Below are positions 5,085 to 64,000 of a DNA stretch of 64,000 nucleotides, in pieces. The notes under the pieces are model-generated. The model did not search any database, was not told where the DNA came from, and saw nothing but the letters and a program-made list of their open reading frames with translations. How positions within the stretch are numbered: the first letter of the stretch is position 1; each line of letters starts with the position of its first letter. This DNA comes from Gammaproteobacteria bacterium. GTDB lineage: Bacteria; Pseudomonadota; Gammaproteobacteria; Ga0077536. A program made the position numbers and the translations under genes. The DNA is taken from contig CAXXLL010000002.1 of the NCBI GenBank assembly GCA_963662545.2, forward strand, positions 224,001-288,000, in the 5' to 3' direction.

Positions 5085-8000
5085 TCAATGGCGCTTCGTC
5101 AAACGCTCGACGTGACCTTGCGCACCCAGCTTCGAAAACGCGTCCTTCGCATGCTGAAGCTCCGAGGCGGCGTCCCAATCCGAGTCGAACGCCCGCGCGA
5201 ATTCGGCGCGGCGCTCGTGCAGGAACGGCTGAACGACGACCGCACCCGTTCGATCGATCAGTGAGTGCGTTTCCTCGAGGGCCGCGAGTGCGCCCTGCCG
5301 ATCACCCAAGCCTGTATGGGCCTGGGCCGAGGCCAGCCAGGGCGGAAGCTCCCAATACAGTTGATGTTCGTGGCAGAACCCGACGGCCTCCAGGGCTATC
5401 TCACGCGCACGTTCCAGATTGCCGAGCGCGACTTCCGCTTGGGCGAGGATCCCCATGGCACTTCCCAGGTGCGCCCGACCGATATTTTCACCCTCCATGA
5501 TTTCGATGGCTTTCTTCGACGCCGCGGCCGAACTTTCGAATTCACACTGATAAAGCAACGCGTTGCCCATCGCCCAATGCGCCATACCCCTCGCGTAACC
5601 CGTTCCCCCAAATTCGGCTTCGGACACAGCCGTATGTGCCAAACTCATCGCCCGCTCAAAATTCCCGTAATAAGCAGACACGATGCTCTCGAGGGATATG
5701 AGTGAACGAGACGAATTCGGGAATCTTGTTGGTCTGAGCATGCGCTTTTCGAATGAATTCGCGAGCGCGCGAGTAGTCTCCAAGGTAACAATTCGTCAAG
5801 CCGACGCCCATTAAAAGCGACCACCGGATACTAAATCCTGTATATCGTGCGCCCCAGTAGGCCTCATCGGGAATTTTCTCGAGTACCTTATTCGCGAGGT
5901 CGATAGCCTCTTGAAAACGGCCGGAAAAGATATAACCGAACACGACCCAGTTCCGCTCGCAGCATTGGAGTTCCTCGTCATTCGTGAGATCGGCCAGGCG
6001 CGCCGCTTCTTCCCCGTAGGTCGCATAATCGTTGGCATAACCCTGCGAGATGCCGCGTAATGCTGAATAAGAGCCGGTCAAAACGGCTTTCAGGGCCGTG
6101 TTTCCCGCACGTTCCGCGAGCGAGATGCCGTCTTCGAAATACGCGCGCGCCTGGTCTTCCGTCGCACCCAGTCGCCACCAGAGGTTACTGATCTGCCCGC
6201 AAGCCTCGGCCCCGATGGTGAAAATCTCCGTCGACGGTTCCAATTCGTCAACAAGTCCCCGGACTTTCTCCCAATGCTCCAATGCCGATGCGGGATCCTT
6301 GACGTTCGCGATTTCCGCGGCCTTCCGATGCCAATTAAGGGCCTGCTCCGGTATGCCCGCGCGTTCCCAGTGGTAGGCAAGCATCGAAGAAAATTCGTCG
6401 ATACGTTGTACTTCCAGTTCTTCTATGGCAGCGGCCACGGCTGCATGCCTGGCAGCGCGCTGCTCCCTCAATTGAGTCTCGTAGGCGACCTCGTGGACGA
6501 GCGGGTGCTTGAACGAATACTCGACGACGGGGTAGAGCGAGGTTTCGTAAACGAAATCCACCGCTTTAAGGCGTTCAAGCGCCGCAGCCAGGTCGGCCGC
6601 GGCGGTGTCGGTGATCTTCTCAATGAGCGGGCGTGAAAAAACTTTCCCGGCAACCGATGCCGCCTGGAGAACGTGCTTCGAGGTTTCATCGAGCCGGTCG
6701 ATGCGCGCGGCGATGATGGCCTGCACGTTTAACGGCACTTCGAGTAGATCGACGTCGCGGCTCAGGCGGTAGGCCCCACGCTTACCTTCGAGCTGCCCGG
6801 TTTCGATCAAGGTATTGATCACTTCCTCGGTATACAGAGGGTTGCCGCCGGTCCAGTGCATGATCTTTTCAGTCAATCGAGTGACGGAGGCATCGTCGCC
6901 CAGCAGGGTTTCTACCATTTCCTGCAGCGCCTCCGGCCCCAGCGGAATCAGCGGCAATTGCTGGTAATGGGCTCTTCCGTTCCAGGCTGCCTGGTATTCG
7001 GGCCTGAAGTTCACGAGGACGAGGGCATGGCTGTTCTCGGCGGCCTCGACCAGCTGTGCCACGAACGCGTCGCTCCAGCTGTCGACCCAGTGCAGATCGT
7101 CGATGAATGTAACGGAGGCCATGCCGCGCTCGCTTCGCGCACGCACGAGCTTGTGCAGCAGGTCGAACAACTGGCGCTGCCGGGCGTCGGCGTCGAGTTG
7201 CGGGGCGGGACGGTCGGGATCGTCGACGCCGAGGAAATCGAACAGCACCGGCATTCCCTCATGCAGAGTCGGGTCGAGCAGGACCAGTGCGCCGGCAATC
7301 TTCTGGCGTGCCTGCCCGGCGGAATCCTGCTCGGAGATATCGAAGTAATTGCGGAACAATTCGAGGATCGGAATGAACGGTATCGTCTTGCCGTGCGCTG
7401 GGCAGTGCGCCTCGTAGACCGGAACCCCCTGCACGCGGCAGCGTTCGGCGAACTCGAAACACAAGCGGCTCTTGCCGAGCCCCGGCTCGCCGACCACGCC
7501 GACTACCTGCCCGTGCCCGGCTTTCACCCGCTCGAGCGCCGTTTCCAGGATCCGCATTTCGTCCTCCCGGCCAACGAATTGTGTCAATCCCCGGGCGCGG
7601 GATATGTCCAGCCGAGAGCGTGCCGTCGTCGTCCCGTCGAGATCAAAGACCGCCAATGCTTCTTCAGCGTCGGATAAGTTCGACCTACCCAGATCCGACA
7701 GTCGAAAAAAACCCTCTACCAGGCGCGCCGTGTGTTCGCTGACGTACACGCGGCCGGATTCGGCGATCTGCTCCAGACGCTGGGCGACGCCCACCGTGTG
7801 TCCTTGTGCGGTATAGTCCATGCGCAGATCGTCGCCAATCTTGCCGACCACGACTTCGCCCGAGTTGATCCCGATTCGCACGCCGAAATCCAGCCCGCGC
7901 TCCAAGCGCAGTTCGATCGCGTAGCGCCGCAGATCTTCCCGCATCTGCAAGGCCGCATAACACGCCCGCTGCGCGTGGTCTTCGTGCGCGATCGGCGCGC

Positions 8001-8433
8001 CGAACAGCGCCATAGCGCCGTCACCGGTATATTGATTGACGGTGCCCTCGAAACGGTGCACACCTTCAGTCAAGATCGAAAAAAAGCGCTCCAGGATACG
8101 GTGCCAGTCTTCGGGGTCCAGGCGGGCGGCGAGATTCATTGAGCCCTTTACGTCGGCGAAGAGTACGGTTACCTGTTTGCGCTCGCCTTCGAGCGCCGAG
8201 CGGGAATTCAAGATCTTGTCGACGAGGTGCTTCGGCGTGTAATCGGCGATCGCCCGGGTCGGCAAGGGTTCAGTCTTCGACGCTGTAGTGGATGCCCCGC
8301 ACTTCGAGCAAAATTTCGCGCCGGGTTTGAGTTCGGCGCCGCAGCTTGCGCAGTTTGCCATCAGCGCGGCGCCGCACTCCGAACAGAAAACGTCGTCGGA
8401 TCCGTTTGCATGTTGGCAAGCGGGGCAGTTCAT
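5085..8433 (-). pseudogene. Zn-ribbon / class III cyclase / STAND-like NTPase / TPR-like protein, paralogue 1 (frameshift near 5694)
   Basis: CxxC pairs, VTVLFADVKGS, QYTGDG, Walker A GEPGLGKS, FIDDLHW. The C-terminus continues in ORF 5085-5783. Removing one base from GGG 5693-5695 gives 1115 aa, close to the paralogues. Confidence 0.88.
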
Positions 8434-8452: not shown

Positions 8453-11400
8453 TCAACCGATCAGCCGGGCCATCCGCTCCGCGTTCCCGGGCGCGCCGAT
8501 CTCCAGAAACAAATCATGTGCTTTCTGCAACTCGACCTCCGGCGACCAGTCACACTTAAAGGCCTGTGCGAATTCCGCGCGGCATTCATGCAGGAAGGGT
8601 TCGAAAGTAGACGCGCCCGTCTCTCGCAGGATGCCCGTAACTTCGTCGATCAGTTCTCGCGCGGCGGCCTGGCCACCTGCCTGAATATGAACGCGTGCCA
8701 TGGCGATCCACGGCTGGAGGGACATTCTGAAATTGTGCTCGCGGCAGTGTGCCAGAATCTCTTCTCCCACGTCCCGCGCTTTATCGATGGCGCCGCTGTT
8801 CAGCAGTGCTTCAACCAGAAACGGATCAGCCGTGGCGCGAAGTAATCCGTATGCGCGGTTGTCCAGAGAAATCTTCCGCCCCCTCTCGAGGTATTCAATC
8901 GCCGCCTCGAAATCTCCATCGATAAACGCGGTGACCCCGGCGCCGAGATCCGCCGCGACCGGTATTACACCGGATGGCGATTTTTCGGCGGTCTCAAACA
9001 GCAAATGAACGAAACGGCGCGCGGTAGTCTGATCGCCGGCATAAGCTGCGTTCGTTAATTCCCAGTAATCGGCGTACACCTTGCCATCGGGAAAAAGGCT
9101 CTGCTGCATTTGCTCGCGCGCCTTTTCATATTGCGGCCCCGCTTCGGCCAGATGCCCGACGACGGACAGTCGCACGGCGTCGGCCAGTGCGATCAGCGCC
9201 GACGGACTGATCGCGGTTGCTGATGTGCCAAAGCGCGTATCATCAGGCAGTTTTTCACGGAGCGCCTGAATGACATCCGCGGCTTCGTGCAGGTTGCCGT
9301 TTGCGTTATGTGCCCAGGGCAGGTAACTCTCCATACTGCATTGCAACTCGAAATCGTCGAGTTCCTTCGCAATATTCGACGCTTCAGTCGTATAAGTCAG
9401 ATAATCGTCGGCATTGGCTAGCCCTACCCCCCGCACGACGCCGTAACCGAGGTAGAGTCCTGCCATAAGTGCCTTGTTCCCCGCGGCCTCGGCCAAGCGT
9501 TTACCGTCTTCGAATAGCTGTTGGGCTTCGGCATCGGTCGAACTCAAGCGCCAGCCGATCATCAGTATGCGCGAGCAGGCAACAGCCCCGGTCGACAGCG
9601 TTGCCGCGTCCGCTGGCAGCTCCTCCGCCAGTTCGCGCACGCGATGCCAATGACGCATCGATGCTGGTGCGTCATGCCCTTCCGTTATTGTGGCCGCGCG
9701 TTGATGCCATTCGAGCGCCTTCGCTAGATCACCGGCAGCGTCCCAGTGGTAAGCGAGCAGTGATGCCTGTTTATCGAGGGCGCTTTGTTCCCCGGCCTCT
9801 ATCGCTTGAGCAACCGCTGCGTGAACCTCCGCGCGGCGCGTCTCGAGTTGTCCGTCGTAGGCGACTTCTTGGGTCAACGGGTGTTTGAAGCCGTATTCGG
9901 CAATCGGATAGAGCGCGCGCTCGTGCACGAAATCACCGTTCTTGAGGCGGTTGATTGCCATTGATAGTTCGTCCGCACTCAATCCGGCAATAGCATTCAA
10001 TAGCGGCCCAGAAAACTCTTTGCCGATCACCGAAGCCGCCTGCAACACGCGCTTGGCGGTGTCCGGCAGCCGGTCGATACGTGCAGCCAGCACCGAGCGC
10101 ACGTTAACGGGTACCTGCAATTCGTCGACCGGCGTCACGCGGCGGTAGGCACCCGGCGCCCCTTCCAGATGCCCACTTTCCGCCAGCATCTGCACGACTT
10201 CTTCGGTAAAGAAAGGATTGCCGCTGGTCCATTGCATGATGCGATCGACGAGTTCCGAAGTTGACGGATCCGTGCCGAGCAGACTTTCGACGAGTTCGCG
10301 CAGATCGGCGGCTTCCAGCGGTACCAATGGGAGTTGCTGGTAATAGGTCTTATTGGTCCACTCGGCCTGGTATTCGGGCCGGAAATTCAACAGAAATAGA
10401 TTGCGGCTGGCCGCAGTGGCTTCCACGAATTGGGCCACGAAGGCGTCACTGCCCTGATCGATCCAGTGCAGATCGTCGATGAAGGCCACGGTCGAGATCC
10501 CCTGCTCGTTGTGCACGCGATAGAATCTATGCATGAGTTCGAAAAGCGCGTGTTGCCGCGCATCGGCATCGAGCTCGGGCGCCGGCCGATCCGGATCGCC
10601 CACCCCCATGAAATCGAACAGCACCGGCAAGCTGTCGATCAGGCTTTCGTCGAGCAGGAGCAGCGCGCCGGCGATCTTCTGCCGCGTCGCGGCCGCGCCA
10701 TCTTGCGACGTGACGCCGAAGTAGCTGCGGTACAGTTCGAGGATCGGGATGTAGGGAATGTTCTTGCCGTGCGCCGGGCAGTGGCCCTCGATCACTTCCA
10801 CGCCATCTGCGCGACACTGCTGGACGAATTCATAGCACAGCCGGCTCTTGCCGAGCCCCGGCTCCCCGACAACACCGACGACCTGTCCATGCCCGTTCCT
10901 GGCCCGCGCCAGCGCGGCGTTCAGAATGTTCATCTCATCGTTGCGGCCGACGAAACGGGTGAGACCGCGTGAGCGGGATACATCGAGACGCGTGCGCGAT
11001 GCCCCCACACCCTCCAGTTCGAATACCCCAACGGGTTCATTCGCGCCGCTCAGTTTCGACACGCCGAGGTCCCGCAGCTCGAAATAACCGTCGACGAGCC
11101 GTTGCGTATGCTCGCTCAGGTAAATTCGATCGGTCGCGGCAAGCTGTTCGATGCGCTGGGCGAGTCCTACGCTGTGTCCCTGGGCGGTGTAGTCCATCCT
11201 GAGGTCGTCACCGATCTTGCCGACGACCACGTCGCCGGAATTGAGTCCGAGCCGCACCCCGAAGTTGAGCCCGCGCTCGATGCGCAGTTGATCCGCGTAG
11301 GCCGTCAACTTCGCGCGCGCGTCGAGCGCCGCATAGCACGCGCGTTGCGCATGGTCTTCATGCGCGATGGGCGCACCGAACAGCGCCATGATCCCGTCGC

Positions 11401-11809
11401 CGGTGTATTGATTGACCGTGCCTTCGTAGCGGTGCACTGCATCGGTCAGAATCGTGAAGAAACGGTCGAGAATGTAGTGCCACGCCTCCGGATCGAGTTG
11501 CTCCGCCAACTCCATCGATCCCTTTACATCGGCGAACATGACCGTCACCTGCTTGCGCTCTCCTTCGAGCGCCGATCGCGTGGTCAGGATCTTTTCGGCA
11601 AGGTGTTTCGGCGTGTAGTCGCCGATGCGACGAGGCGGCGGCTTTACCGATTCACCATCAGCCGTCCCAGTGCCGCACTTCGGGCAAAATTTGGCAGTCG
11701 CTTTAAGTTCGGCGCCGCAATTCGCGCATGACACTGCGAGCTTCGCGCCACATTCTTCGCAGAAGAGAGCGTCTTGATCGTTTGCATGCTGGCAGGTAGG
11801 GCAGTTCAT
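8453..11809 (-). CDS. Zn-ribbon / class III cyclase / STAND-like NTPase / TPR-like protein, paralogue 2
   Basis: 1118 aa; MNCPTCQHAN, FADVKGS, QYTGDG, GEPGLGKS, FIDDLHW, GNPFFTEE, FKHPL. Confidence 0.93.
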   Translation of the reverse strand: MNCPTCQHANDQDALFCEECGAKLAVSCANCGAELKATAKFCPKCGTGTADGESVKPPPRRIGDYTPKHLAEKILTTRSALEGERKQVTVMFADVKGSMELAEQLDPEAWHYILDRFFTILTDAVHRYEGTVNQYTGDGIMALFGAPIAHEDHAQRACYAALDARAKLTAYADQLRIERGLNFGVRLGLNSGDVVVGKIGDDLRMDYTAQGHSVGLAQRIEQLAATDRIYLSEHTQRLVDGYFELRDLGVSKLSGANEPVGVFELEGVGASRTRLDVSRSRGLTRFVGRNDEMNILNAALARARNGHGQVVGVVGEPGLGKSRLCYEFVQQCRADGVEVIEGHCPAHGKNIPYIPILELYRSYFGVTSQDGAAATRQKIAGALLLLDESLIDSLPVLFDFMGVGDPDRPAPELDADARQHALFELMHRFYRVHNEQGISTVAFIDDLHWIDQGSDAFVAQFVEATAASRNLFLLNFRPEYQAEWTNKTYYQQLPLVPLEAADLRELVESLLGTDPSTSELVDRIMQWTSGNPFFTEEVVQMLAESGHLEGAPGAYRRVTPVDELQVPVNVRSVLAARIDRLPDTAKRVLQAASVIGKEFSGPLLNAIAGLSADELSMAINRLKNGDFVHERALYPIAEYGFKHPLTQEVAYDGQLETRRAEVHAAVAQAIEAGEQSALDKQASLLAYHWDAAGDLAKALEWHQRAATITEGHDAPASMRHWHRVRELAEELPADAATLSTGAVACSRILMIGWRLSSTDAEAQQLFEDGKRLAEAAGNKALMAGLYLGYGVVRGVGLANADDYLTYTTEASNIAKELDDFELQCSMESYLPWAHNANGNLHEAADVIQALREKLPDDTRFGTSATAISPSALIALADAVRLSVVGHLAEAGPQYEKAREQMQQSLFPDGKVYADYWELTNAAYAGDQTTARRFVHLLFETAEKSPSGVIPVAADLGAGVTAFIDGDFEAAIEYLERGRKISLDNRAYGLLRATADPFLVEALLNSGAIDKARDVGEEILAHCREHNFRMSLQPWIAMARVHIQAGGQAAARELIDEVTGILRETGASTFEPFLHECRAEFAQAFKCDWSPEVELQKAHDLFLEIGAPGNAERMARLIG

Positions 11810-11887
11810 CGTTCGTCAGGTCCGCACAGAGATCCAGGGTGATTATCGATCAACCACCCCGCCAGCTACCGAGTGATTACGTCGCGC

Positions 11888-11944
11888 TTGCACAAGAGTA
11901 CCTCAACCATACATAATGTCGTTTGATGTCATTGACATTAAACG
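11888..11944 (+). promoter_or_regulatory. Putative promoter and inverted-repeat operator of relBE
   Basis: TTGCAC (11888), 18 bp spacer, CATAAT (11912). Inverted repeat CGTTTGATGTCA-T-TGACATTAAACG at 11920-11944 with one mismatch. Confidence 0.65.
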
Positions 11945-11952
11945 GGGTTATT

Positions 11953-12174
11953 ATGACTCAAATTACCGCGCGCCTGCCCGACGAACTTGTCCAGGCCTTG
12001 GATCAAACGGCGCGCAGCCTTAATCGCTCCCGGGCCGAAGTGATCCGGCAAGCCGTGGAACGTTACCTGGAAGATTTCGATGACCTGAGTGTCGCAATCG
12101 AGCGATTACAGGATCCTAATGATCCTGTTCTCGACTGGGATGAGGTCAAGCGTGATCTACTCGGTCAGAATTAA
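11953..12174 (+). CDS. RHH/CopG antitoxin (RelB-like)
   Basis: MTQITARLPDEL...RSRAEVIRQAVERYLEDFDD...LDWDEVK; overlaps the downstream toxin. Confidence 0.87.
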   Translation: MTQITARLPDELVQALDQTARSLNRSRAEVIRQAVERYLEDFDDLSVAIERLQDPNDPVLDWDEVKRDLLGQN

Positions 12175-12424
12175 GGGTAGTGCAGCGAAAGAGCTTGCCG
12201 GGATCGAAAAAGCACCTCGGGCGCAGATCATCGAATCGATCGATGCGCTGGCTGAGAATCCCCACAGGGGCAGTGCGCTGAAAGGTGACCTGAGCGGGCT
12301 GCGCCGAATACGCGTTGGTAACTATCGAGTGATCTACGAGATTATCAAGGTTGAAGTCCTTGTCCTCGTAGTCCAGGTGCGACACCGGCGAGATGTCTAT
12401 CGCAAGAGAGGCGCGACTCGCTGA
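12152..12424 (+). CDS. relE: RelE/ParE-family toxin
   Basis: YSVRIKGSAAKEL, LAENP, LRRIRVGNYRVIYEI, VRHRRDVY. GTG start at 12152. Confidence 0.9.
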   Translation: MIYSVRIKGSAAKELAGIEKAPRAQIIESIDALAENPHRGSALKGDLSGLRRIRVGNYRVIYEIIKVEVLVLVVQVRHRRDVYRKRGATR

Positions 12425-12574
12425 GATTGACCTTCAGCGCCGAGCTCGGTGTGCATCGCGCAGTTCGTCGTCCGCCGACCACTCGCATTTGAATGACCCG
12501 GCGAACGTTGGGCGGCATTCGTAGAGCAATAGTTGGTAGACGTTACTGCTATGCTGGCAGGCGGGGCAGTCCAT
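12397..12574 (-). pseudogene. Internally deleted relic of a fourth cyclase-NTPase paralogue
   Basis: Hand translation: MDCPACQHS (family N-terminus) joined to YQLLLYECRPTFAGSFKCEWSADDELRDAH, then in a shifted frame TELGAEGQSQRVAPLLR* (family C-terminus). Confidence 0.82.
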
Positions 12575-12577
12575 TGG

Positions 12578-15500
12578 CTAATCGAGTGCCTTGGCGAGGC
12601 GTTCTACGTGCGTAGTAAGCCCCATCTCTGTGCACAGGCGATGTGCGGTACGCAACTCCTCCTCGGCCGACCACTTACCACCGAAAGCCTTTGCAAATGC
12701 GGCGCGTTGTTCATGGATAAACGGCTGAAAATAGCGACCCTTCGTTTGTGTGATCAGCGTTTGCAGTTCGTCGAGCGCCGCGAGTGCCCCGGATTCATCG
12801 CCCAGCACGATGCGGGCGCGCGCGAGCGAGACCCATGGTTGCATATCATGAATCGAGCGTTTCGACCGACAGAAATCCACGCCGTTTTCTGCCCATCGCA
12901 GGCCGTCTTCAATTTTTCCTTGTTCGATGCAGGCCTCACTTAACGCGCCAGTCGCGGCGCCGCGGTAGTAACGCATTTGCATTGCATCACCGATTTGCAC
13001 CGCGGTTTCGAGAAAATCGTGCGCTCTATCCGTCTCCCACATGTTTAGGCAGGTAATACCCATGCACAAATTCGCAAGCGTACCGGCAAACCCGGCTTCG
13101 CTGTGCCCGGCGTCCTCGTAAACTGAGCGTGCTCGGTCGAGCGCCGTATCCCGATTGCCATCGAGGATCGCGAAACGGCACGCATGATAGCGGCCCAGCC
13201 ACATCATCTCGGGAGACATCTCGGTCGTTGGAAATCGCTCGAACTCACTGAGCAAGCGCTTCGCTTCTTCAAATCGTCCGAGTGTCCAGAGACTACCGCA
13301 CGCCGCGACCGTTAGGCCCGCGCGTATGCTATTACCCATTATCCTTACGCCGAATTCGCCATCATCGGGGCTATTGGCGAGTGCGTATTCTTTGACATTT
13401 AGGGCATCCTCGAACCGGCCTGCCGCGAAGTAGGCCCAGATGAGATAAAAACGCATGCCGAGCCGCAGTTCGGTTTCACCGATCTGATCTGCGAGACGGA
13501 CGGCTTCCTCGGAGTGCTTAACGTACTTCTGCGAATCCCCGATCGTTACGCCTTGCGCCACCGAATATCCACCCTGCAGGTAGACAAGCGTGGTCAGGTC
13601 ACCAGAGCGCTCGGCGAAAGCCTTGCCGTCCTCAAAATTGCGTTCGATATCTTCTTCCTTCCCACCGAGGCGCCAACCCAAGGTTAGGATCTGTGAGCAT
13701 GCCTGAGCACCAAGCATGAGGTTCTCTTTCTCGGGCGGCAGTTCGTCGATGAACTCACGCACGCGACGCCAGTGGTGGATCGAACCGGTTGCATCTTTGC
13801 GATAGGACCAGACTGCTGCACGCCGGTGCCATTCAACGGCTTGTGCGTGATCGCCCGCGACCTCCCAGTGATAAGCGAGCAGCGGCGAGCGCTCATCGAG
13901 ATTGTCGGGCTCGAAGGCCTCGAACGCCTGCGCAACGGCCCCGTGGACCTGTGCACGATGGCTCTGAAGTTGCGAGTTGTACGCAACTTCCTGCGTCAGT
14001 GGGTGTTTAAAAGCGCACTCGACGATCGGGTATAGCGAGCGCTCATAGATAAAGTCGCCGTCCTTCAGAATCTCGAGGGCAATACCGAATTCACTGCTTG
14101 CCAGCTCCGATACGGTCTCGAGTAGCGGCAGGGGAAACTCCTTACCGATCACCGCTGCCGTTTGCAGCAGCTGCTTGCTCGGATCGGACAGGCGATCGAT
14201 GCGTGCAGCGAGTACGGCCCGCACGTTGACAGGCACGGCCAGTTCTCGAACGTCCATAACCAGATGATAGGCACCGGGACTACCCTCGAGCTGCCCGGTC
14301 TCGACCAGTTCCTGAATGACTTCTTCGGTGTAGAACGGATTGCCGGTCGTCCACTGTACGATGCGGTCCGACAACTTGTTCAGCGATGGATCGCCGCCGA
14401 GGATACTGCCGACCAGTTCCCTGATGACCTCGTTGCCCAGAGGCGCAAGCGGCAATTGATGATAATGGGCGCGTCGCATCCAGTCGGCCTGGTATTCGGG
14501 GCGGAAATTTAGCAGCAACAGATTTCGACTGTGCTCTATGGTGGACGCAATTATTTGCGTCAGAAATGCATCACTACCCGGGTCGATCCAGTGCAGGTCG
14601 TCGATAAAAAGAAGCATCGTGATGCCGCGCTCCGCCTGGGCACGGTAGAGCGTATGCAGCATGGAGACGAGCTGCCGTTGCCGGGCGTCGGCGTCGAGCT
14701 CAAGTGCCGGCATATCGGGATCGCCGACACCCATGAATTCGAACAGCACCGGCAGTCCATCGCGCAGACTCTCGTCAAGCAACAGCATCGCGCCGGCAAT
14801 TTTTCGCCTGGCTTCCGTTTCATCGTCCCGGGCCTTGATGCCGAAATAGCTTCGGTACAACGCGAGAATGGGAACGAAGGGAATGTTTTTACCGTGTGCC
14901 GGACAGTGCGCTTCAAGGATCATGAGACCATTTGCACGGCAGCGTTTTACAAATTCCAGGCACAGCCGGCTCTTGCCGAGCCCGGCCTCGCCTACGACCC
15001 CGACCACTTGGCCGTTGCCGGCGCTGGCCTGGGCCAGTGCCGCATCCAGTGTCTGCATTTCGTCATGGCGTCCGACGAAGCGGGTCAGGCCGCGCGATTG
15101 CGACACCTCGATGCGCGTTCTCGATGTCCCGACATCTTCGAGCTCGAAGATACCGGTCGCACTGCCGGTTTTGGATAAATTCGAGGCGCCCAGTGAACGC
15201 AGGCGGAAATAGCCTTCAACGAGGTGTTGTGTGCTTTCGCTTAGATAAACGCGTCCGGGTTCTGCGAGTTGTTCGATGCGTTGCGCAAGGCCGACGGTAT
15301 GCCCCTGGGCCGTGTAATCCATGCGCAGGTCGTCGCCGATCTTGCCTACCACGACCTCGCCGGAGTTGAGACCGATGCGGAGGGCAAAACTCACCCCTCG
15401 CTCGATGCGTAACTGGTCGGCGTAAACGCCGAGCTTCTGCCGGATGTCCAGGGCGGCGTAACAGGCCCGCTGGGCATGATCCTCGTGGGCGATCGGCGCG

Positions 15501-15937
15501 CCGAAGAGTGCCATGATGCCGTCGCCCGTATACTGGTTAACCGTCCCTTCAAATCGATGGACGCCTTCGGTGAGGATGGCGAAGAAGCGATCGAGGATCT
15601 CATGCCATTCTTCCGCGTCGAGCTGGCGCGCCAGTTCCATCGAACCCTTTACATCGGCGAACATAACGGTGAGGTCTTTGCGTTCGCCTTCGAGCGCGGC
15701 TCGAGAGGTCAGGATCTTGTCAGCGAGGTGTTTGGGTGTGTAGTCGGCGATCGATCGTGGTGCTGATATTTCATTTTTGGGGCCCGCTGAAACGTCAATC
15801 CCGCACCCGGGACAGAAACGCGCATTAGGTGACAGTGCTTCGCCACAACTCGCGCAGTTTCGCTCGAGCTTTGCTCCGCAGGATTCGCAGAACCGCGCGC
15901 TGTCGTTATTCGCGTGTTGGCAGGATGGGCAGTTCAT
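12578..15937 (-). CDS. Zn-ribbon / class III cyclase / STAND-like NTPase / TPR-like protein, paralogue 3
   Basis: 1119 aa with the same motif order (GEAGLGKS, FIDDLHW, GNPFYTEE). Confidence 0.93.
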   Translation of the reverse strand: MNCPSCQHANNDSARFCESCGAKLERNCASCGEALSPNARFCPGCGIDVSAGPKNEISAPRSIADYTPKHLADKILTSRAALEGERKDLTVMFADVKGSMELARQLDAEEWHEILDRFFAILTEGVHRFEGTVNQYTGDGIMALFGAPIAHEDHAQRACYAALDIRQKLGVYADQLRIERGVSFALRIGLNSGEVVVGKIGDDLRMDYTAQGHTVGLAQRIEQLAEPGRVYLSESTQHLVEGYFRLRSLGASNLSKTGSATGIFELEDVGTSRTRIEVSQSRGLTRFVGRHDEMQTLDAALAQASAGNGQVVGVVGEAGLGKSRLCLEFVKRCRANGLMILEAHCPAHGKNIPFVPILALYRSYFGIKARDDETEARRKIAGAMLLLDESLRDGLPVLFEFMGVGDPDMPALELDADARQRQLVSMLHTLYRAQAERGITMLLFIDDLHWIDPGSDAFLTQIIASTIEHSRNLLLLNFRPEYQADWMRRAHYHQLPLAPLGNEVIRELVGSILGGDPSLNKLSDRIVQWTTGNPFYTEEVIQELVETGQLEGSPGAYHLVMDVRELAVPVNVRAVLAARIDRLSDPSKQLLQTAAVIGKEFPLPLLETVSELASSEFGIALEILKDGDFIYERSLYPIVECAFKHPLTQEVAYNSQLQSHRAQVHGAVAQAFEAFEPDNLDERSPLLAYHWEVAGDHAQAVEWHRRAAVWSYRKDATGSIHHWRRVREFIDELPPEKENLMLGAQACSQILTLGWRLGGKEEDIERNFEDGKAFAERSGDLTTLVYLQGGYSVAQGVTIGDSQKYVKHSEEAVRLADQIGETELRLGMRFYLIWAYFAAGRFEDALNVKEYALANSPDDGEFGVRIMGNSIRAGLTVAACGSLWTLGRFEEAKRLLSEFERFPTTEMSPEMMWLGRYHACRFAILDGNRDTALDRARSVYEDAGHSEAGFAGTLANLCMGITCLNMWETDRAHDFLETAVQIGDAMQMRYYRGAATGALSEACIEQGKIEDGLRWAENGVDFCRSKRSIHDMQPWVSLARARIVLGDESGALAALDELQTLITQTKGRYFQPFIHEQRAAFAKAFGGKWSAEEELRTAHRLCTEMGLTTHVERLAKALD

Positions 15938-16163: not shown

Positions 16164-17570
16164 TTACGGTGCGGCTCCCGACCCCATGCGCATATCCTTC
16201 ATCCGCCCGTCACTTTGCAACAAACCGAGTACCGCATGATCAAGATCCAATCGCTCGCCGCGCCAGTTCGCTACACACGTCTCCGCGGAAACGTGAATAC
16301 CTCTCGCCCGTACTAATTGGGCAAGGTCTTCGGTCGCGGGCGTCGGTGCGGGTACCTCTGGGAGCAGCATACCGTCGGGACGCAGGAATAATAGCTTGCC
16401 GTCGTCGCGCCGTTCGAGCGTAAAGCCGCCTTCGTGTATGAGTTGGTGATGATGCCGGCACAGCAGTACGAGGTTCTGCACACTGGTCTCGCCGCCGTCC
16501 GCCCAATGCCTTATATGGTGCGCATCGACGCTGCGGTGGCGGATACACCCCGGAAACCGGCAGCCGCGGTCGCGCGCTTCGAGCGCCCGGCGAATAGCGG
16601 ACGGTACGGCACGGGTCTTGCGGCCGATGGCGAGCGGTTCACCATCGGCGTCCTCTTCGATCTGGACGATCCCGGCGTCGCAGGCGAGCCGCCGGGCGGT
16701 CTCCGCGGCCAGGGCCGGGCCATGCTCGATTTCGCAGCGCGTCGTGCGGTCTTCTGCGCGTAAGGTGTCCCGATCGACGTATACGACGATTTGATGGCGG
16801 TCGGCTTGTTTGGATGTAAGCGCGCCATGCGCCAGGAACTGCTCGCCCAGGTGACTGAGCGCATCGGCACGGCGTGTGGCGGCCGGATGCGCTGCACCGG
16901 GTGACGTTCCCGCGGGAACGTCGGCGTCGACGAGCGGTTCTTTGATCTGCCCGGTGGGCACGCCGTCCGCCACGAGATCGTCCGCCGCCGCGGCGAGGGC
17001 CTTAAGCAGCATCGCGCCAGTTTCGGTCGGCAGGCGCGCCTGGATGACCAGCATGCCGTCGTCGTCGTAATACCAGTCCAGGTGGCGCGCTTGGTGTGCA
17101 CCGTTCGCCTTCTCGGTTTCTTCGATTCGCTGCACCTGCCGATAGGCGCGCACCGTCTGCTCGACATGCATCGCCGTGCCGTGGCGCGCGATCATCAATA
17201 AAGTGTCCTCGTTCTCGGGTGTCGCCACGCGGGTCATCGCCCGCACCTTGGAGTAGCTCACGACGCCTGACGCAAACGCCGCGCTGATCTGGGGTAACGA
17301 TTCCAGTGCCCGCGCGACGCGCACCTTTTCACGCGCCGCGCCGAGTGCGATCCCGCATTTCCAGTTGAGCCAGTGGGCGCAGGAGTGTAGGCCGTGCTTG
17401 CCCCAGACTTCGCGGCGGTCGAACTCCGCGATCAGCATGAGCAACTGCCAGGTGGCGGCGGCGATGTTGGCGGCGAGGGTGGTGATCGAGTCTTCCAGGG
17501 CGTCGTCGGGGGATCGCTCAGAATGGAACTCGGGAGGGGTATGGCAAGGCGTGATAGCGAGGTCTTCCAT
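16164..17570 (-). CDS. DUF222 + HNH endonuclease (13E12/REP-like)
   Basis: SCAHWLNW, AREKVRVARALESLP, ARRLACDA, RDRGCRFPGC, DAHHIRHWADGGETSVQNLVLLCRHHH. GGAG lies upstream of ATG 17570. Confidence 0.9.
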   Translation of the reverse strand: MEDLAITPCHTPPEFHSERSPDDALEDSITTLAANIAAATWQLLMLIAEFDRREVWGKHGLHSCAHWLNWKCGIALGAAREKVRVARALESLPQISAAFASGVVSYSKVRAMTRVATPENEDTLLMIARHGTAMHVEQTVRAYRQVQRIEETEKANGAHQARHLDWYYDDDGMLVIQARLPTETGAMLLKALAAAADDLVADGVPTGQIKEPLVDADVPAGTSPGAAHPAATRRADALSHLGEQFLAHGALTSKQADRHQIVVYVDRDTLRAEDRTTRCEIEHGPALAAETARRLACDAGIVQIEEDADGEPLAIGRKTRAVPSAIRRALEARDRGCRFPGCIRHRSVDAHHIRHWADGGETSVQNLVLLCRHHHQLIHEGGFTLERRDDGKLLFLRPDGMLLPEVPAPTPATEDLAQLVRARGIHVSAETCVANWRGERLDLDHAVLGLLQSDGRMKDMRMGSGAAP

Positions 17571-17593
17571 GGCGTATTTCGCTCCAGCAAATA

Positions 17594-17613
17594 TACTGTA
17601 ATTATATCCAGTA
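17594..17613. promoter_or_regulatory. LexA (SOS) box overlapping the -10 element of the HNH gene
   Basis: TACTGTAATTATATCCAGTA fits CTG-N10-CAG with TA flanks. Minus-strand TATAAT at 17601-17606 lies inside it. Confidence 0.8.
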
Positions 17614-17678
17614 TTTGCTCGCACAGCCAGCATTTTTTCCCTTCGCGTCGTGGAAATTTTTACGGCGACCGGAAGGGC

Positions 17679-61784: not shown

Positions 61785-64000
61785 TTGTCGTTTGACGAAC
61801 TCTTGGATGCGGTACGCCAATTGATGGAGCGTGACGGCCGCGTGGCTTATCGTGTGCTCAAGCGCCGCTTTGAACTCGACGACGAGGACATCGAGGACAT
61901 CAAGGCCGATCTGGTCGACGCGAAACGCCTGGCCAAGGACGAAGACGGCAGGGTACTGGTGTGGATTGGCGACGCCGGCGGGGGATCGGATCCGGCACCC
62001 TCGAGCCGGCCCGAAAACACGCACGCCGTTGCCGACCATGCGGATCGGCGCCTGATCACGGTGATGTTTTGCGACATCGTCGGCTCGACGGAATTATCGG
62101 GTCGTTTCGACGCCGAGGAACTCAGGGATCTGGTGCGCGAATATCAGGGCGTCTGCGCGGAAGTCATCGCGCGTTGCGATGGGCACATCGCGCAGTATCT
62201 GGGTGATGGGCTGCTGGTTTATTTCGGCTACCCGGTGGCGCAGGAAGACGAAGCCGGCCGCAGCATTCAGGCGGCCCTTGAAATCCTCGATGCGCTGAGC
62301 AAAGCCGAACCGTTACAGGCTCGACTCGGAGAACCCCTGCGGGTGCGGATCGGTATACACACCGGGCCGGTCGTCATCGGCGAAATGGGCGGGGCCGATC
62401 GTCACGAGCGGCTCGCGCTCGGTGAGACGTCGAATATCGCCGCACGGGTGCAGGGGTCGGCGAGACCCAACGAAATATTGATCACCGCGGCCACCCACCG
62501 CCTGGTGGACGGACTCTATGAATGTGAATTGCACGGTCCGCACATCCTTAAAGGCGTCGCGCAACCCATCGACCTCTACACGGTAAAAGGGGAAGCCGCC
62601 CCCTTGAATCGTTTCGAAGTGGCGCTCAGTACCGGAGCCTTGTCGGAATTCGTCGGCCGTCAACAGGAACTGCAACTGCTCGCCCGGCACTGGGCCGAGG
62701 CACGCGAGGGGCGCGGCCACGTCGTGCTCTTGAGCGGCGAAGCCGGCATGGGCAAATCGAGACTGGTGCAGGAGTTCAAAAAAGAGGTCGGCGACGACGC
62801 ACGGCAGATCACGCTCAGATGTTCGCCGAATCACCAGAACAGCGCCTACTACCCCATTGTTCAGCTGCTCCGGCGGGTTTTCGGTATCGAAAACGATGAT
62901 TCTGAAGCGATGCGTATACAGAAGATGGAGTCGGCGCTGGAACCCTATGCATTCACGAAACCGGAAACAGCGCCTCTGTTCGCATCGCTTCTTTCACTCG
63001 ATCATCCCGACCAGGGCCAGCTCGTCCCGCTTGATCCGCAGGCTCGCAAGACCCTGATGTTTGAAGCCTTGATCGATTGGTTTCTCGAAGAAGCGACGGC
63101 CCGGCCTGCCTACGTGATTTGGGATGACGTGCATTGGATGGATCCCGCAAGCGCCGAGCTGCTGGACCTGTATCTGGATCACATACCCGCTTCGCGGACG
63201 CTTGCGTTGGTGATTTACCGATCGGATTTCGTGCTGCCTTGGAATCAACGCACATTTTTCGAACACCTCTCCATCGGGCGACTCCCGGAAACTGAGGTCG
63301 AGGCAATCATTATGAACGTGGCCGAACGGGAAACGATTCCCGCGGAGCTTCTACGGCATATCAAGGACAAGACGGACGGCATTCCGCTCTACGTCGAAGA
63401 ACTCACCAAGACCATTGTCGAAGCGGATTTGCTGGAGCAAGCCGACAAAGGCGGGATTACCGAACCGTTGCAGGACATCGCGATCCCCGCGACTCTGCAC
63501 GACTCACTCGAAGCCCGCATCGATCGATGCCCGAGCGGTAAGCATATCGCGCAATGGGGCGCGGTGATCGGGCGAGAATTCGGCTACGAACTGCTGACTC
63601 ACCTCGTCGACGACCGCGCCGTGTTGTCGCGGGGCCTGGACGAATTACTCGATGCCGAATTGTTATATCGCAGCGGTACGCGTGCGGATCCCAGCTATAT
63701 ATTCAAGCATGCGCTCATCAGGGACACCGCCTACGAATCGCTGCTCAATAAACACCGGCGTGCCCGCCACGCGGAAATCGCCGAAGTGCTCGAACAGCAC
63801 TATCCGGAAACCGTGCAGCGCGAACCGGAGCTGGTCGCTTATCACTTCGCCGAAGCCGGCATTCACGAGCGCGCGGTCGAACATCTCTACGCGGCGGGAC
63901 AGCGGGCGGTGGAGCGTTCGGCCGCCCCGGTGGCTCAGGGGCACTTGCACAAAGCCTTGAAGATCGTCGCGTCCTTGCCCGATACGGTTGATCGCGCTCG
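61785..64000 (+). CDS. Class III cyclase / STAND-like NTPase protein (3' partial; absent from the ORF track)
   Basis: GGAGG then TTG 61785. Hand translation: ITVMFCDIVGST, QYLGDG, RIGIHTG, GETSNIAAR, GEAGMGKS, DDVHW, FKHALI. Confidence 0.9.
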   Translation, partial: MSFDELLDAVRQLMERDGRVAYRVLKRRFELDDEDIEDIKADLVDAKRLAKDEDGRVLVWIGDAGGGSDPAPSSRPENTHAVADHADRRLITVMFCDIVGSTELSGRFDAEELRDLVREYQGVCAEVIARCDGHIAQYLGDGLLVYFGYPVAQEDEAGRSIQAALEILDALSKAEPLQARLGEPLRVRIGIHTGPVVIGEMGGADRHERLALGETSNIAARVQGSARPNEILITAATHRLVDGLYECELHGPHILKGVAQPIDLYTVKGEAAPLNRFEVALSTGALSEFVGRQQELQLLARHWAEAREGRGHVVLLSGEAGMGKSRLVQEFKKEVGDDARQITLRCSPNHQNSAYYPIVQLLRRVFGIENDDSEAMRIQKMESALEPYAFTKPETAPLFASLLSLDHPDQGQLVPLDPQARKTLMFEALIDWFLEEATARPAYVIWDDVHWMDPASAELLDLYLDHIPASRTLALVIYRSDFVLPWNQRTFFEHLSIGRLPETEVEAIIMNVAERETIPAELLRHIKDKTDGIPLYVEELTKTIVEADLLEQADKGGITEPLQDIAIPATLHDSLEARIDRCPSGKHIAQWGAVIGREFGYELLTHLVDDRAVLSRGLDELLDAELLYRSGTRADPSYIFKHALIRDTAYESLLNKHRRARHAEIAEVLEQHYPETVQREPELVAYHFAEAGIHERAVEHLYAAGQRAVERSAAPVAQGHLHKALKIVASLPDTVDRA

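What the first reader, a model, noticed from the sequence alone, without database searches (positions are those of the whole stretch)
12397..12574. Hidden scar of a fourth paralogue: first ~9 codons fused to the last ~50
Three nt after the paralogue 3 stop, the minus strand reads MDCPACQHS and then YQLLLYECRPTFAGSFKCEWSADDELRDAH / TELGAEGQSQRVAPLLR*. This matches MNCPACQHAN and FEPFLHECRAEFAQAFKCDWSPEVELQKAH...EIGAPGNAERMARLIG. About 3.2 kb appears deleted, which is sequence evidence of gene turnover in the array. The ORF track does not show it.
Basis: seen in the sequence. Interest (0 to 1): 0.7.

Follow-up and report, generated by a model that had tools for sequence, protein, structure and literature searches.

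The report
Deletion scar of a lost cyclase gene
A 178-base stretch between two large signalling genes is the dead remnant of a further copy of that gene, with its first 11 codons joined to its last 47, which is an ordinary example of bacterial gene decay.

Summary
On the minus strand, 3 nt after the stop of the 1119-aa gene at 12578-15937, an ATG opens 11 codons that match the paralogue starts. These are fused in frame to 31 codons and, after an 11-nt frameshifting deletion, to 16 more codons plus a stop, which match the paralogue ends. The start motif occurs 4 times in the six-frame genome: three gene starts and this site. Genome-wide tblastn E-values for the end part run from 9e-11 to 1.5e-5.

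Codon-position identities (0.76/0.89/0.43 to its nearest relative, dN/dS about 0.14) show the piece evolved as a coding gene of its own, so it is not a recent copy of a neighbour's end. Contigs from four runs of four studies cross the junction colinearly, so it is not an assembly collapse.

The parent was a zinc-ribbon / class III cyclase / AAA_16 / TPR protein, and about 3.17 kb is missing. No intact orthologue was found.

The family decays elsewhere too. The third array member is frameshifted, a second remnant lies at C2:77 kb, and related genomes hold further remnants. The scar is real but ordinary, and of low interest.

The parts
12578..15937 (-). Intact array member pA (1119 aa): double zinc ribbon, class III cyclase, AAA_16 NTPase, TPR. 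Its stop lies 3 nt before the scar's ATG.
12542..12574 (-). Scar N-part: ATG plus 10 codons matching the paralogue starts, with only the first CxxC of the zinc ribbon
12449..12541 (-). Scar C-part 1: 31 codons, in frame with the N-part, matching the conserved C-terminal cap of the paralogues. The large-deletion junction lies at 12541/12542.
12448..12448 (-). Single leftover base at the site of an 11-nt deletion (four codons minus one base) relative to all four other copies. It shifts the frame.
12397..12447 (-). Scar C-part 2: 16 codons plus stop TAG, in the shifted frame, matching the paralogue ends
12434..12574 (-). The 46-aa ORF as it now reads, ending early because of the frameshift. It has no Pfam family.
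12140..12424 (+). ParE/RelE-type toxin gene (start uncertain), convergent with the scar. The family profile ends at about 12400. The last 7 codons and the stop lie antisense on the scar's last codons.
11953..12174 (+). Ribbon-helix-helix (RelB-like) antitoxin gene. The start is ATG 11953 or TTG 11923.
11919..11945 (.). 12-bp-stem palindrome beside promoter-like hexamers upstream of the antitoxin. A role as operator is an inference only.
8453..11809 (-). Intact array member pB (1118 aa), same architecture
5656..8433 (-). Array member pC, first 925 codons. The frame is lost near 5725-5747.
5085..5783 (-). C-terminal part of pC (TPR plus C-terminal cap) in another frame

Best explanation
Window 12397-12574 (minus strand) is a non-functional remnant of one further full-length member (pX) of the tandem array of zinc-ribbon / class III cyclase / AAA_16 / TPR genes. 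pX lay directly behind pA, 3 nt after its stop.

A single internal deletion of about 3.17 kb joined codon 11 in frame to the last 51 codons or so. This removed most of the zinc ribbons, the cyclase, the NTPase and the TPR region. A later 11-nt deletion shifted the frame within the remaining tail.

Shown: the anatomy, the significance of both matches, the coding-type divergence and the reality of the junction in DNA. Inferred: that both ends came from one gene, the order of the two deletions, and that the remnant has no function.
For: (1) Both ends match. tblastn E-values are 1e-8 (locally, to pB) and 3e-7 (to pA) for the end part. Genome-wide they are 9e-11, 1.7e-6 and 1.5e-5. The start motif occurs 4 times in the six-frame genome, three of them gene starts.

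(2) Position. The ATG lies 3 nt after pA's stop. pB and pC are 19 nt apart, and a distant relative (L027) has two copies 2 nt apart.

(3) Divergence is of the coding kind. Identity at codon positions 1/2/3 is 0.76/0.89/0.43 to the nearest copy (the remnant at C2:77 kb), with dN/dS about 0.14. Against pB the figures are 0.62/0.81/0.36. Position 2 versus position 3 differences are 5 versus 26 of 46, Fisher p 5.6e-6. The piece is no closer to pA (40% aa) or pB (47%) than intact copies are to each other (46-50%).

(4) An 11-nt gap relative to all four other copies breaks the frame.

(5) The scar departs at 5 of 14 columns that are invariant in the other four copies. Each of the others departs at 2-3 of 11-12. 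This is a weak hint of relaxed constraint.

(6) Contigs of runs X2, X8 (12,496 nt each) and X4 (4,102 nt) are colinear over 11402-14000 or more. A 180-nt contig of X14 spans the junction. No indel, joint or listed loose end falls at 12541/12542.

(7) Internal deletion happens in this family. G087:C13 carries residues 1-280 fused in frame to about 1050-1115.
Against: No genome searched holds an intact gene at this position or a close orthologue of the remnant.
- The same-genus genome G001 has only a pB orthologue (77%), in a non-syntenic setting.
- The genome contigs and metagenome-contig scans with pA gave relatives of at most 47% and 57% identity.
- A protein-database search with the 46-aa ORF against longer proteins scored nothing.
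- The best intact relative of the tail is in another genus (G086:C162). It is 67% identical to the C2:77 kb remnant over 54 aa, and its start differs.

The N-part is only 11 codons long. The distant-relative profile supports only the last 16 codons (E 0.049) and not the 31 before them. Two of the four runs laid may be the assembly's own source. All four are nearly identical, so they show that the junction is real but do not show its age.
Confidence: 0.76

Rival explanations
1. The deletion spanned more than one gene. The 11 start codons belong to one lost paralogue and the tail to another further down, so the array once held five or more members.
For: Arrays of three occur in relatives (G067:C3, three C-termini about 3.4 kb apart). 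Nothing links the two parts to one gene except adjacency. The tail's nearest relatives, the C2:77 kb remnant and G086:C162, either lack a start or have a different one.
Against: It needs a larger event and more lost genes without any extra trace. One gene suffices to explain the data.
Confidence: 0.12
2. There was never a fourth gene. A small tandem duplication spanned the junction of two adjacent array genes. It placed a copy of the downstream gene's first codons in front of a copy of the upstream gene's last codons.
For: Such a duplication gives exactly this layout: a full gene, a short spacer, a start fragment fused to an end fragment. The N-part is 21 of 24 nt identical to pB's start.
Against: The tail is not a copy of pA's end (40% aa, 49% nt). 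It is closer to a remnant 160 kb away (61% aa, 70% nt). Its differences from every copy fall mainly at third codon positions (dN/dS 0.14-0.29 where it could be computed). A fragment that was never functional should not show this. An independent in-frame internal deletion in G087 shows that deletion does occur in the family.
Confidence: 0.05
3. The remnant is kept because it does something. It could be a 46-aa peptide translated by coupling to pA, or a spacer or terminator serving pA and the convergent toxin gene.
For: The ATG lies 3 nt after pA's stop. The large deletion is in frame. The sequence is identical in four runs. The toxin gene's last 7 codons and its stop lie within it. A second in-frame N-to-C fusion exists in G087.
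Against: An in-frame junction has a one-in-three chance. The 11-nt frameshift cuts the conserved cap in half. The ORF has no Pfam family and no scored relative. No terminator-like site lies in 12397-12574 and there is no Rfam match. The four runs are near-clonal, so their identity says nothing about selection. The G087 copy carries an in-frame stop.
Confidence: 0.05
4. Chance resemblance or assembly collapse.
For: Both pieces are short, and the paralogues could in principle confuse an assembler.
Against: Genome-wide E-values reach 9e-11, and the start motif is otherwise exclusive to the gene starts. Three long contigs and one short one, from four studies, reproduce the junction. The paralogues are only 54-59% identical in protein, and a collapse between them would give a chimeric long gene, not this fusion.
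Confidence: 0.02

Closest known systems
Bacterial pseudogene remnants produced by deletional bias (Kuo & Ochman, PMC2817411 and PMC2916853; Danneels et al., PMC6054270; for each I saw only the search listing and the start of the abstract)
   Same: A gene is inactivated and eroded by deletions, leaving a short recognisable piece between intact genes. A large deletion is followed by a small frameshifting one.
   Different: Here the remnant keeps both extreme ends of the gene, joined in frame. It lies inside a tandem paralogue array of a 5.6-Mb genome rather than in a reduced endosymbiont genome.
Mycobacterium tuberculosis Rv0386 / Rv1358 / Rv2488c: class III cyclase + MalT-type ATPase (+TPR) + LuxR HTH proteins (bioRxiv 10.1101/2024.03.06.583649, passages read)
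   Same: The parent family shares the order class III cyclase, P-loop STAND-type NTPase, TPR, and a length of about 1100 aa.
   Different: The window's proteins start with a double zinc ribbon. No HTH family was reported at E <= 0.01. They end in a conserved cap of about 50 aa. The scar itself keeps none of the catalytic domains.
TIGR03903 TOMM system kinase/cyclase fusion protein (NCBIfam)
   Same: It is the best NCBIfam match of pA and pB over the cyclase-NTPase-TPR part (E 1e-93 and 5e-91).
   Different: The scores of 315 and 306 bits are far below the curated cut-off of 705.75. There is no kinase domain, since the match starts at profile position 278-279. pA and pB are therefore not members.
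Type II toxin-antitoxin module ParE/RelE with RHH antitoxin (the neighbour of the scar)
   Same: Toxin: ParE_toxin 50.9 bits (cut-off 23) and RelE_StbE 33.1 bits (cut-off 27.9). Antitoxin: RHH_1 42.5 bits (cut-off 20.5) and RelB-like 51.2 bits (cut-off 50). The two genes overlap.
   Different: It is not part of the remnant. It is notable only because the toxin's extra 7-codon tail and stop run antisense into the scar.

Membership tests
Gene remnant (pseudogene) by internal deletion | Significant, colinear similarity of the piece to parts of intact homologues | tested here: met
   E-values from 9e-11 to 1.5e-5 genome-wide for the end part; start motif 4 times in the genome, 3 of them gene starts
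Gene remnant (pseudogene) by internal deletion | Essential domains missing | tested here: met
   The 46-aa ORF has 0 Pfam families, while the neighbours carry DZR, Guanylate_cyc, AAA_16 and TPR. Codons equivalent to pB 12-1067 are absent.
Gene remnant (pseudogene) by internal deletion | Reading frame disrupted | tested here: met
   11-nt gap relative to 4 of 4 other copies; the ORF ends at 12434
Gene remnant (pseudogene) by internal deletion | Present in the DNA, not an assembly artefact | tested here: met
   Contigs of 4 of 4 runs laid (4 studies) cross the junction without a gap. Two of them may be the source.
Gene remnant (pseudogene) by internal deletion | Intact orthologue at the same position in a relative | tested here: not met
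   Not found in 40 relatives, in 80 other genomes of the family, in genome contigs or metagenome contigs with pA, or in the protein database. The flanks are not syntenic in G001.
Gene remnant (pseudogene) by internal deletion | No expression or function | not testable with these tools
   No RNA holder was listed. This is no evidence either way.
Rv0386-like cyclase-ATPase-TPR-LuxR regulators | C-terminal LuxR-type HTH | tested here: not met
   No HTH family among the Pfam hits of pA, pB or pC at E <= 0.01
TOMM kinase/cyclase fusion (TIGR03903) | Score above the curated equivalog cut-off; N-terminal kinase | tested here: not met
   314.7 and 306.3 bits against a cut-off of 705.75; the match begins at profile position 278-279
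Pycsar (PycC cyclase plus effector) | Stand-alone pyrimidine cyclase next to a cNMP-sensing effector gene | tested here: inconclusive
   PADLOC PycC hits of 1e-21 to 1e-23 cover only the cyclase domain and are no better than the generic Pfam Guanylate_cyc hit. None of the 8 neighbouring ORFs scanned showed a cNMP-binding family. Product specificity was not tested.
Type II TA ParE/RelE-RHH (neighbour) | Small RHH antitoxin gene followed by an overlapping ParE/RelE-fold toxin gene, both above family cut-offs | tested here: met

The most novel reading that the evidence does not exclude
The array may be a fast-turning, NLR-like sensor family. It has a conserved zinc-ribbon/cyclase output, a STAND NTPase switch and a hypervariable TPR sensor. 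Identity between copies is 77-82% in the cyclase part and 22-29% in the TPR part. It would evolve by birth and death in this family of marine, sponge-associated bacteria, for example in defence or host sensing. In that setting, in-frame internal deletions would repeatedly leave start-to-cap mini-genes (this scar and G087:C13) that keep the conserved 50-aa C-terminal cap and act as regulators or decoys of the intact copies.
Probability: 0.08. Interest if true: 0.5.

Novelty: new member of a known kind. Interest (0 to 1): 0.2.

Why it matters
The scar records that this array once had at least four members. It adds to other signs that the family gains and loses copies quickly: a frameshifted third member, a second remnant in the same genome, and remnants in relatives. 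For annotation, it explains an apparently empty 178-nt gap and marks a 46-aa ORF that should not be called a gene.

It opens no new question by itself. The gene family, made of large cyclase-STAND-TPR proteins of unknown role arranged in tandem arrays across several phyla, is the more interesting object.

Tried and rejected
- **Intact orthologue.** I searched with DNA 11700-12800 in 40 relatives. The only hit outside the window's own genome was a 31-nt match in G007. pB in the same 40 relatives matched in 3 genomes at E <= 1e-100, none syntenic. pA in genome contigs gave 9 loci, at most 47% identical. pA in metagenome contigs gave 7 loci, at most 57% and that one only a partial match. The 46-aa ORF against longer proteins gave 3 candidates and none scored. 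These searches gave no ancestor.
- **RNA expression.** No RNA holder was listed.
- **Rfam.** No match with E <= 1 in 11500-12900.
- **Terminators and promoters.** No terminator-like site falls inside the scar. Counts in 11600-12900 were 2 found against 1.4 expected for terminators, and 3 against 0.7 for promoters.
- **Earlier notes of this scan.** Nothing near this place. The four notes elsewhere in the genome concern other mobile elements and an operon, and did not bear on this finding.
- **Microhomology at the junction.** It cannot be assessed because the parent sequence is lost.
- **31-nt inverted repeat.** One arm lies in the toxin gene and the other in the scar tail. At 71% complementary I treated it as chance.
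- **PMC2447327.** The held text lacks the body of the paper, so nothing was taken from it.

Full report
**Setting**

The window is G000:C2:224001-288000 of a 5.58-Mb, 3-contig genome. Earlier notes of this scan call the organism a marine bacterium. Some of the runs that hold the stretch are labelled sponge metagenome.

Three large ORFs lie head to tail on the minus strand:
- pA, 12578-15937, 1119 aa
- pB, 8453-11809, 1118 aa
- pC, 5656-8433, 925 aa

Each has a double zinc ribbon (DZR), a class III cyclase domain (Guanylate_cyc), an AAA_16 NTPase and TPR repeats. pA and pB are 54% identical, and pB and pC 59%. Identity is 77-82% in the cyclase part, falls to 22-29% in the TPR part and rises again in the last 50 residues or so.

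pB and pC are 19 nt apart. Between pA and pB lie 768 nt. These hold the finding and, on the plus strand, an RHH antitoxin gene (11953-12174) and a ParE/RelE toxin gene (to 12424), both above the curated cut-offs. The array lies between the glycine-cleavage genes (gcvT, gcvP) on one side and a DUF222/HNH gene on the other.

**The observation**

The minus strand reads TAG (pA's stop), CCA, ATG. Three pieces follow.

1. *Start piece, 12542-12574.* These 11 codons resemble the paralogue starts. 7 of 11 residues are identical to pA, and 21 of 24 nt are identical to pB's start. The pattern M[ND]CP.CQH occurs only four times in the six-frame translation of the whole genome: the three gene starts and this site.
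2. *First end piece, 12449-12541.* These 31 codons continue in the same frame and align with the paralogue C-termini. Local E-values are 1e-8 to pB and 3e-7 to pA. Against the whole genome they are 9e-11 to a remnant at C2:77 kb, 1.7e-6 to pB and 1.5e-5 to pA. The present frame then stops at 12434, giving a 46-aa ORF.
3. *Second end piece, 12397-12447.* The alignment goes on in another frame for 16 codons and a stop. In a gap-free codon alignment, pA, pB, the pC end and the 77-kb remnant all have four more codons between the two end pieces. The scar has one base there, so 11 nt are missing.

A profile built only from 10 C-termini of other organisms ranks this tail fourth of 2095 six-frame fragments of the window (E 0.049), after the three genes. 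It does not pick up the 31 codons before it, whose motif is specific to this lineage.

The scar keeps 11 start codons and 47 end codons.

**Is the junction real?**

Logan contigs of four runs from four studies were laid on 11000-14000.
- One 12,496-nt contig each in X2 and X8 covers the whole stretch, with 2 differences and no gaps.
- A 4,102-nt contig in X4 covers 11402-14000 with none.
- In a 2019 run (X14), a 180-nt contig covers 12456-12635 with no difference, and so bridges the large-deletion junction.

No indel, joint or listed loose end falls at 12541/12542. 30 further loose ends were not shown. X2 and X8 may be the assembly's own source.

The 11-nt site is bridged by the three long contigs only. 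All runs are nearly identical, so they establish that the junction exists as DNA but say nothing about its age. Contigs drop rare variants, so a minority full-length form is not excluded.

**What it came from**

The tail is not a recent copy of a neighbour's end:

| Compared with | aa identity | nt identity |
|---|---|---|
| pA | 40% | 49% |
| pB | 47% | 60% |
| 77-kb remnant | 61% | 70% |

Intact copies are 46-50% identical to one another over the same columns.

Differences fall mainly at third codon positions. Identity at positions 1/2/3 is 0.76/0.89/0.43 against the 77-kb remnant and 0.62/0.81/0.36 against pB. dN/dS is 0.14-0.29 where dS could be computed. For position 2 versus position 3, 5 versus 26 of 46 sites differ (Fisher p 5.6e-6).

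A fragment that had never been part of a working gene would not show this pattern. For most of its history the sequence was therefore the end of a distinct, selected paralogue.

This argues against the main alternative, a small tandem duplication across a gene junction, although such a duplication would give the same layout. The scar differs at 5 of 14 columns that are invariant in the other four copies, against 2-3 of 11-12 for each of the others. This is a weak sign of drift since inactivation.

By comparison with pB, codons 12-1067 are missing, about 3.17 kb. Whether the start and the end belonged to one gene or to two adjacent ones cannot be decided.

**Search for an intact version**

None was found.
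- Of 40 relatives, only G001 (same genus) has a close array member. It is a pB orthologue at 77%, standing alone in a non-syntenic neighbourhood.
- pA has no relative above 47% identity in genome contigs. In metagenome contigs it has none above 57%, and that one is a partial match.
- The 46-aa ORF found no longer protein in the protein database.
- The C-terminal cap was then sought with the 77-kb remnant's end in 81 genomes of the bacterial family. It occurs in 13 of the 81, the window's own genome included.
- The nearest intact gene is G086:C162, 1149-aa frame, 67% identical to the 77-kb remnant's end. It has a different start.

**Turnover in the family**

*In this genome*
- pC has lost its frame near 5725-5747. 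Its last 232 codons lie in another frame at 5085-5783. No reads were laid on this site.
- A second remnant at C2:77031-77446 holds only the last 140 codons or so, with a frameshift.

*In relatives*
- G012 has a 62-codon end piece.
- G049 has an in-frame stop 68 codons before the end.
- G009 has a 285-codon end piece.
- G087:C13 has residues 1-280 fused in frame to about 1050-1115, with an in-frame stop after the zinc ribbons. This is an independent internal deletion of the NTPase-TPR part.

*Tandem arrays* occur in G067 (three copies), G083 and G086 (two each), and in distant phyla. Examples are L027, with two copies 2 nt apart, and L030.

**Mechanism and function**

The likeliest history has three steps:
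1. A fourth gene stood behind pA.
2. A single deletion removed its interior.
3. An 11-nt deletion followed.

The order of the two deletions is inferred. I regard the remnant as non-functional, for these reasons:
- it has no domain
- it has no relatives
- its frame is broken
- it has no terminator-like site
- it has no Rfam match

The toxin gene's family profile ends at about 12400. Its 7 extra codons and its stop lie antisense on the scar's last codons. The toxin-antitoxin module therefore abuts the end of the lost gene exactly. Whether its arrival had anything to do with the deletion is unknown.

**Comparison with what is known**

The object is an ordinary bacterial pseudogene remnant of the kind treated in the deletional-bias literature (PMC2817411, PMC2916853, PMC6054270; for these I saw only listings and the starts of abstracts).

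The parent family resembles the mycobacterial Rv0386 group in the order cyclase, ATPase, TPR (passages of 10.1101/2024.03.06.583649). It has no HTH and has an N-terminal double zinc ribbon. It falls far below the cut-off of TIGR03903. PADLOC PycC hits reflect the generic cyclase fold only.

**Verdict**

The feature is real and neatly readable, but it is an expected product of gene decay. Interest is low (0.2). Novelty: a new member of a known kind.

Noticed in passing
window 5085-5783 and 5656-8433 (-): The third array member, pC, is split by a frameshift near 5725-5747. Its TPR end and C-terminal cap continue in another frame. It is either a pseudogene or a sequencing error.
   Followed up: partly
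G000:C2:77031-77446 (L020 3029-3443, -), outside the window: A second remnant of the same subfamily: only the last 140 codons or so, with a frameshift. It is the closest relative of the scar's tail (61% aa, 70% nt). No intact member of this sub-branch was found in the genome.
   Followed up: partly
L044 1474-2550 = L048 4185-5258 (G087:C13, -): A copy in another genus of the family has residues 1-280 (zinc ribbons plus cyclase) fused in frame to the last 65 residues or so, with an in-frame stop after the zinc ribbons. This is an independent internal deletion that again keeps the C-terminal cap.
   Followed up: partly
L041 1483-1668 (G012); L043 1489-3165 (G049); L045 835-1689 (G009); L046 (G090): Further end pieces or interrupted copies of the family in related genomes: a 62-codon piece, an in-frame stop 68 codons before the end, a 285-codon piece, and a copy with a TAG inside.
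   Followed up: partly
window 12397-12424: The ParE/RelE toxin gene's last 7 codons and its stop, beyond the end of the family profile, overlap the scar's last codons on the opposite strand. The toxin-antitoxin module abuts the lost gene's stop codon exactly.
   Followed up: partly
last 50 residues or so of pA, pB and pC, and of loci L021-L033: A conserved C-terminal cap follows the hypervariable TPR region. It is recognisable in relatives from several phyla (10 of 10 C-termini aligned). Its role is unknown.
   Followed up: partly
L027 595-7344; G067:C3:447033-454077; G083:C12:119552-123082; L047 3052-9951: Tandem arrays of two or three family members recur in unrelated genomes, in one case with only 2 nt between the genes.
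   Followed up: partly
window 11919-11945: A palindrome with a 12-bp stem overlaps promoter-like hexamers just upstream of the antitoxin gene. It may be the module's operator.
   Followed up: no
L020 2176-2343 and 2793-2969 (G000:C2, about 76.2-77.0 kb): Two nearly identical copies, about 620 nt apart, of a sequence of about 170 nt lie next to the second remnant. It may be a small repeat element.
   Followed up: no
window 16164-17633 (-) and about 62031-64000 (+): A DUF222/HNH endonuclease gene lies directly upstream of the array. A more distant family member (30% identical to pB) runs off the window's end.
   Followed up: no
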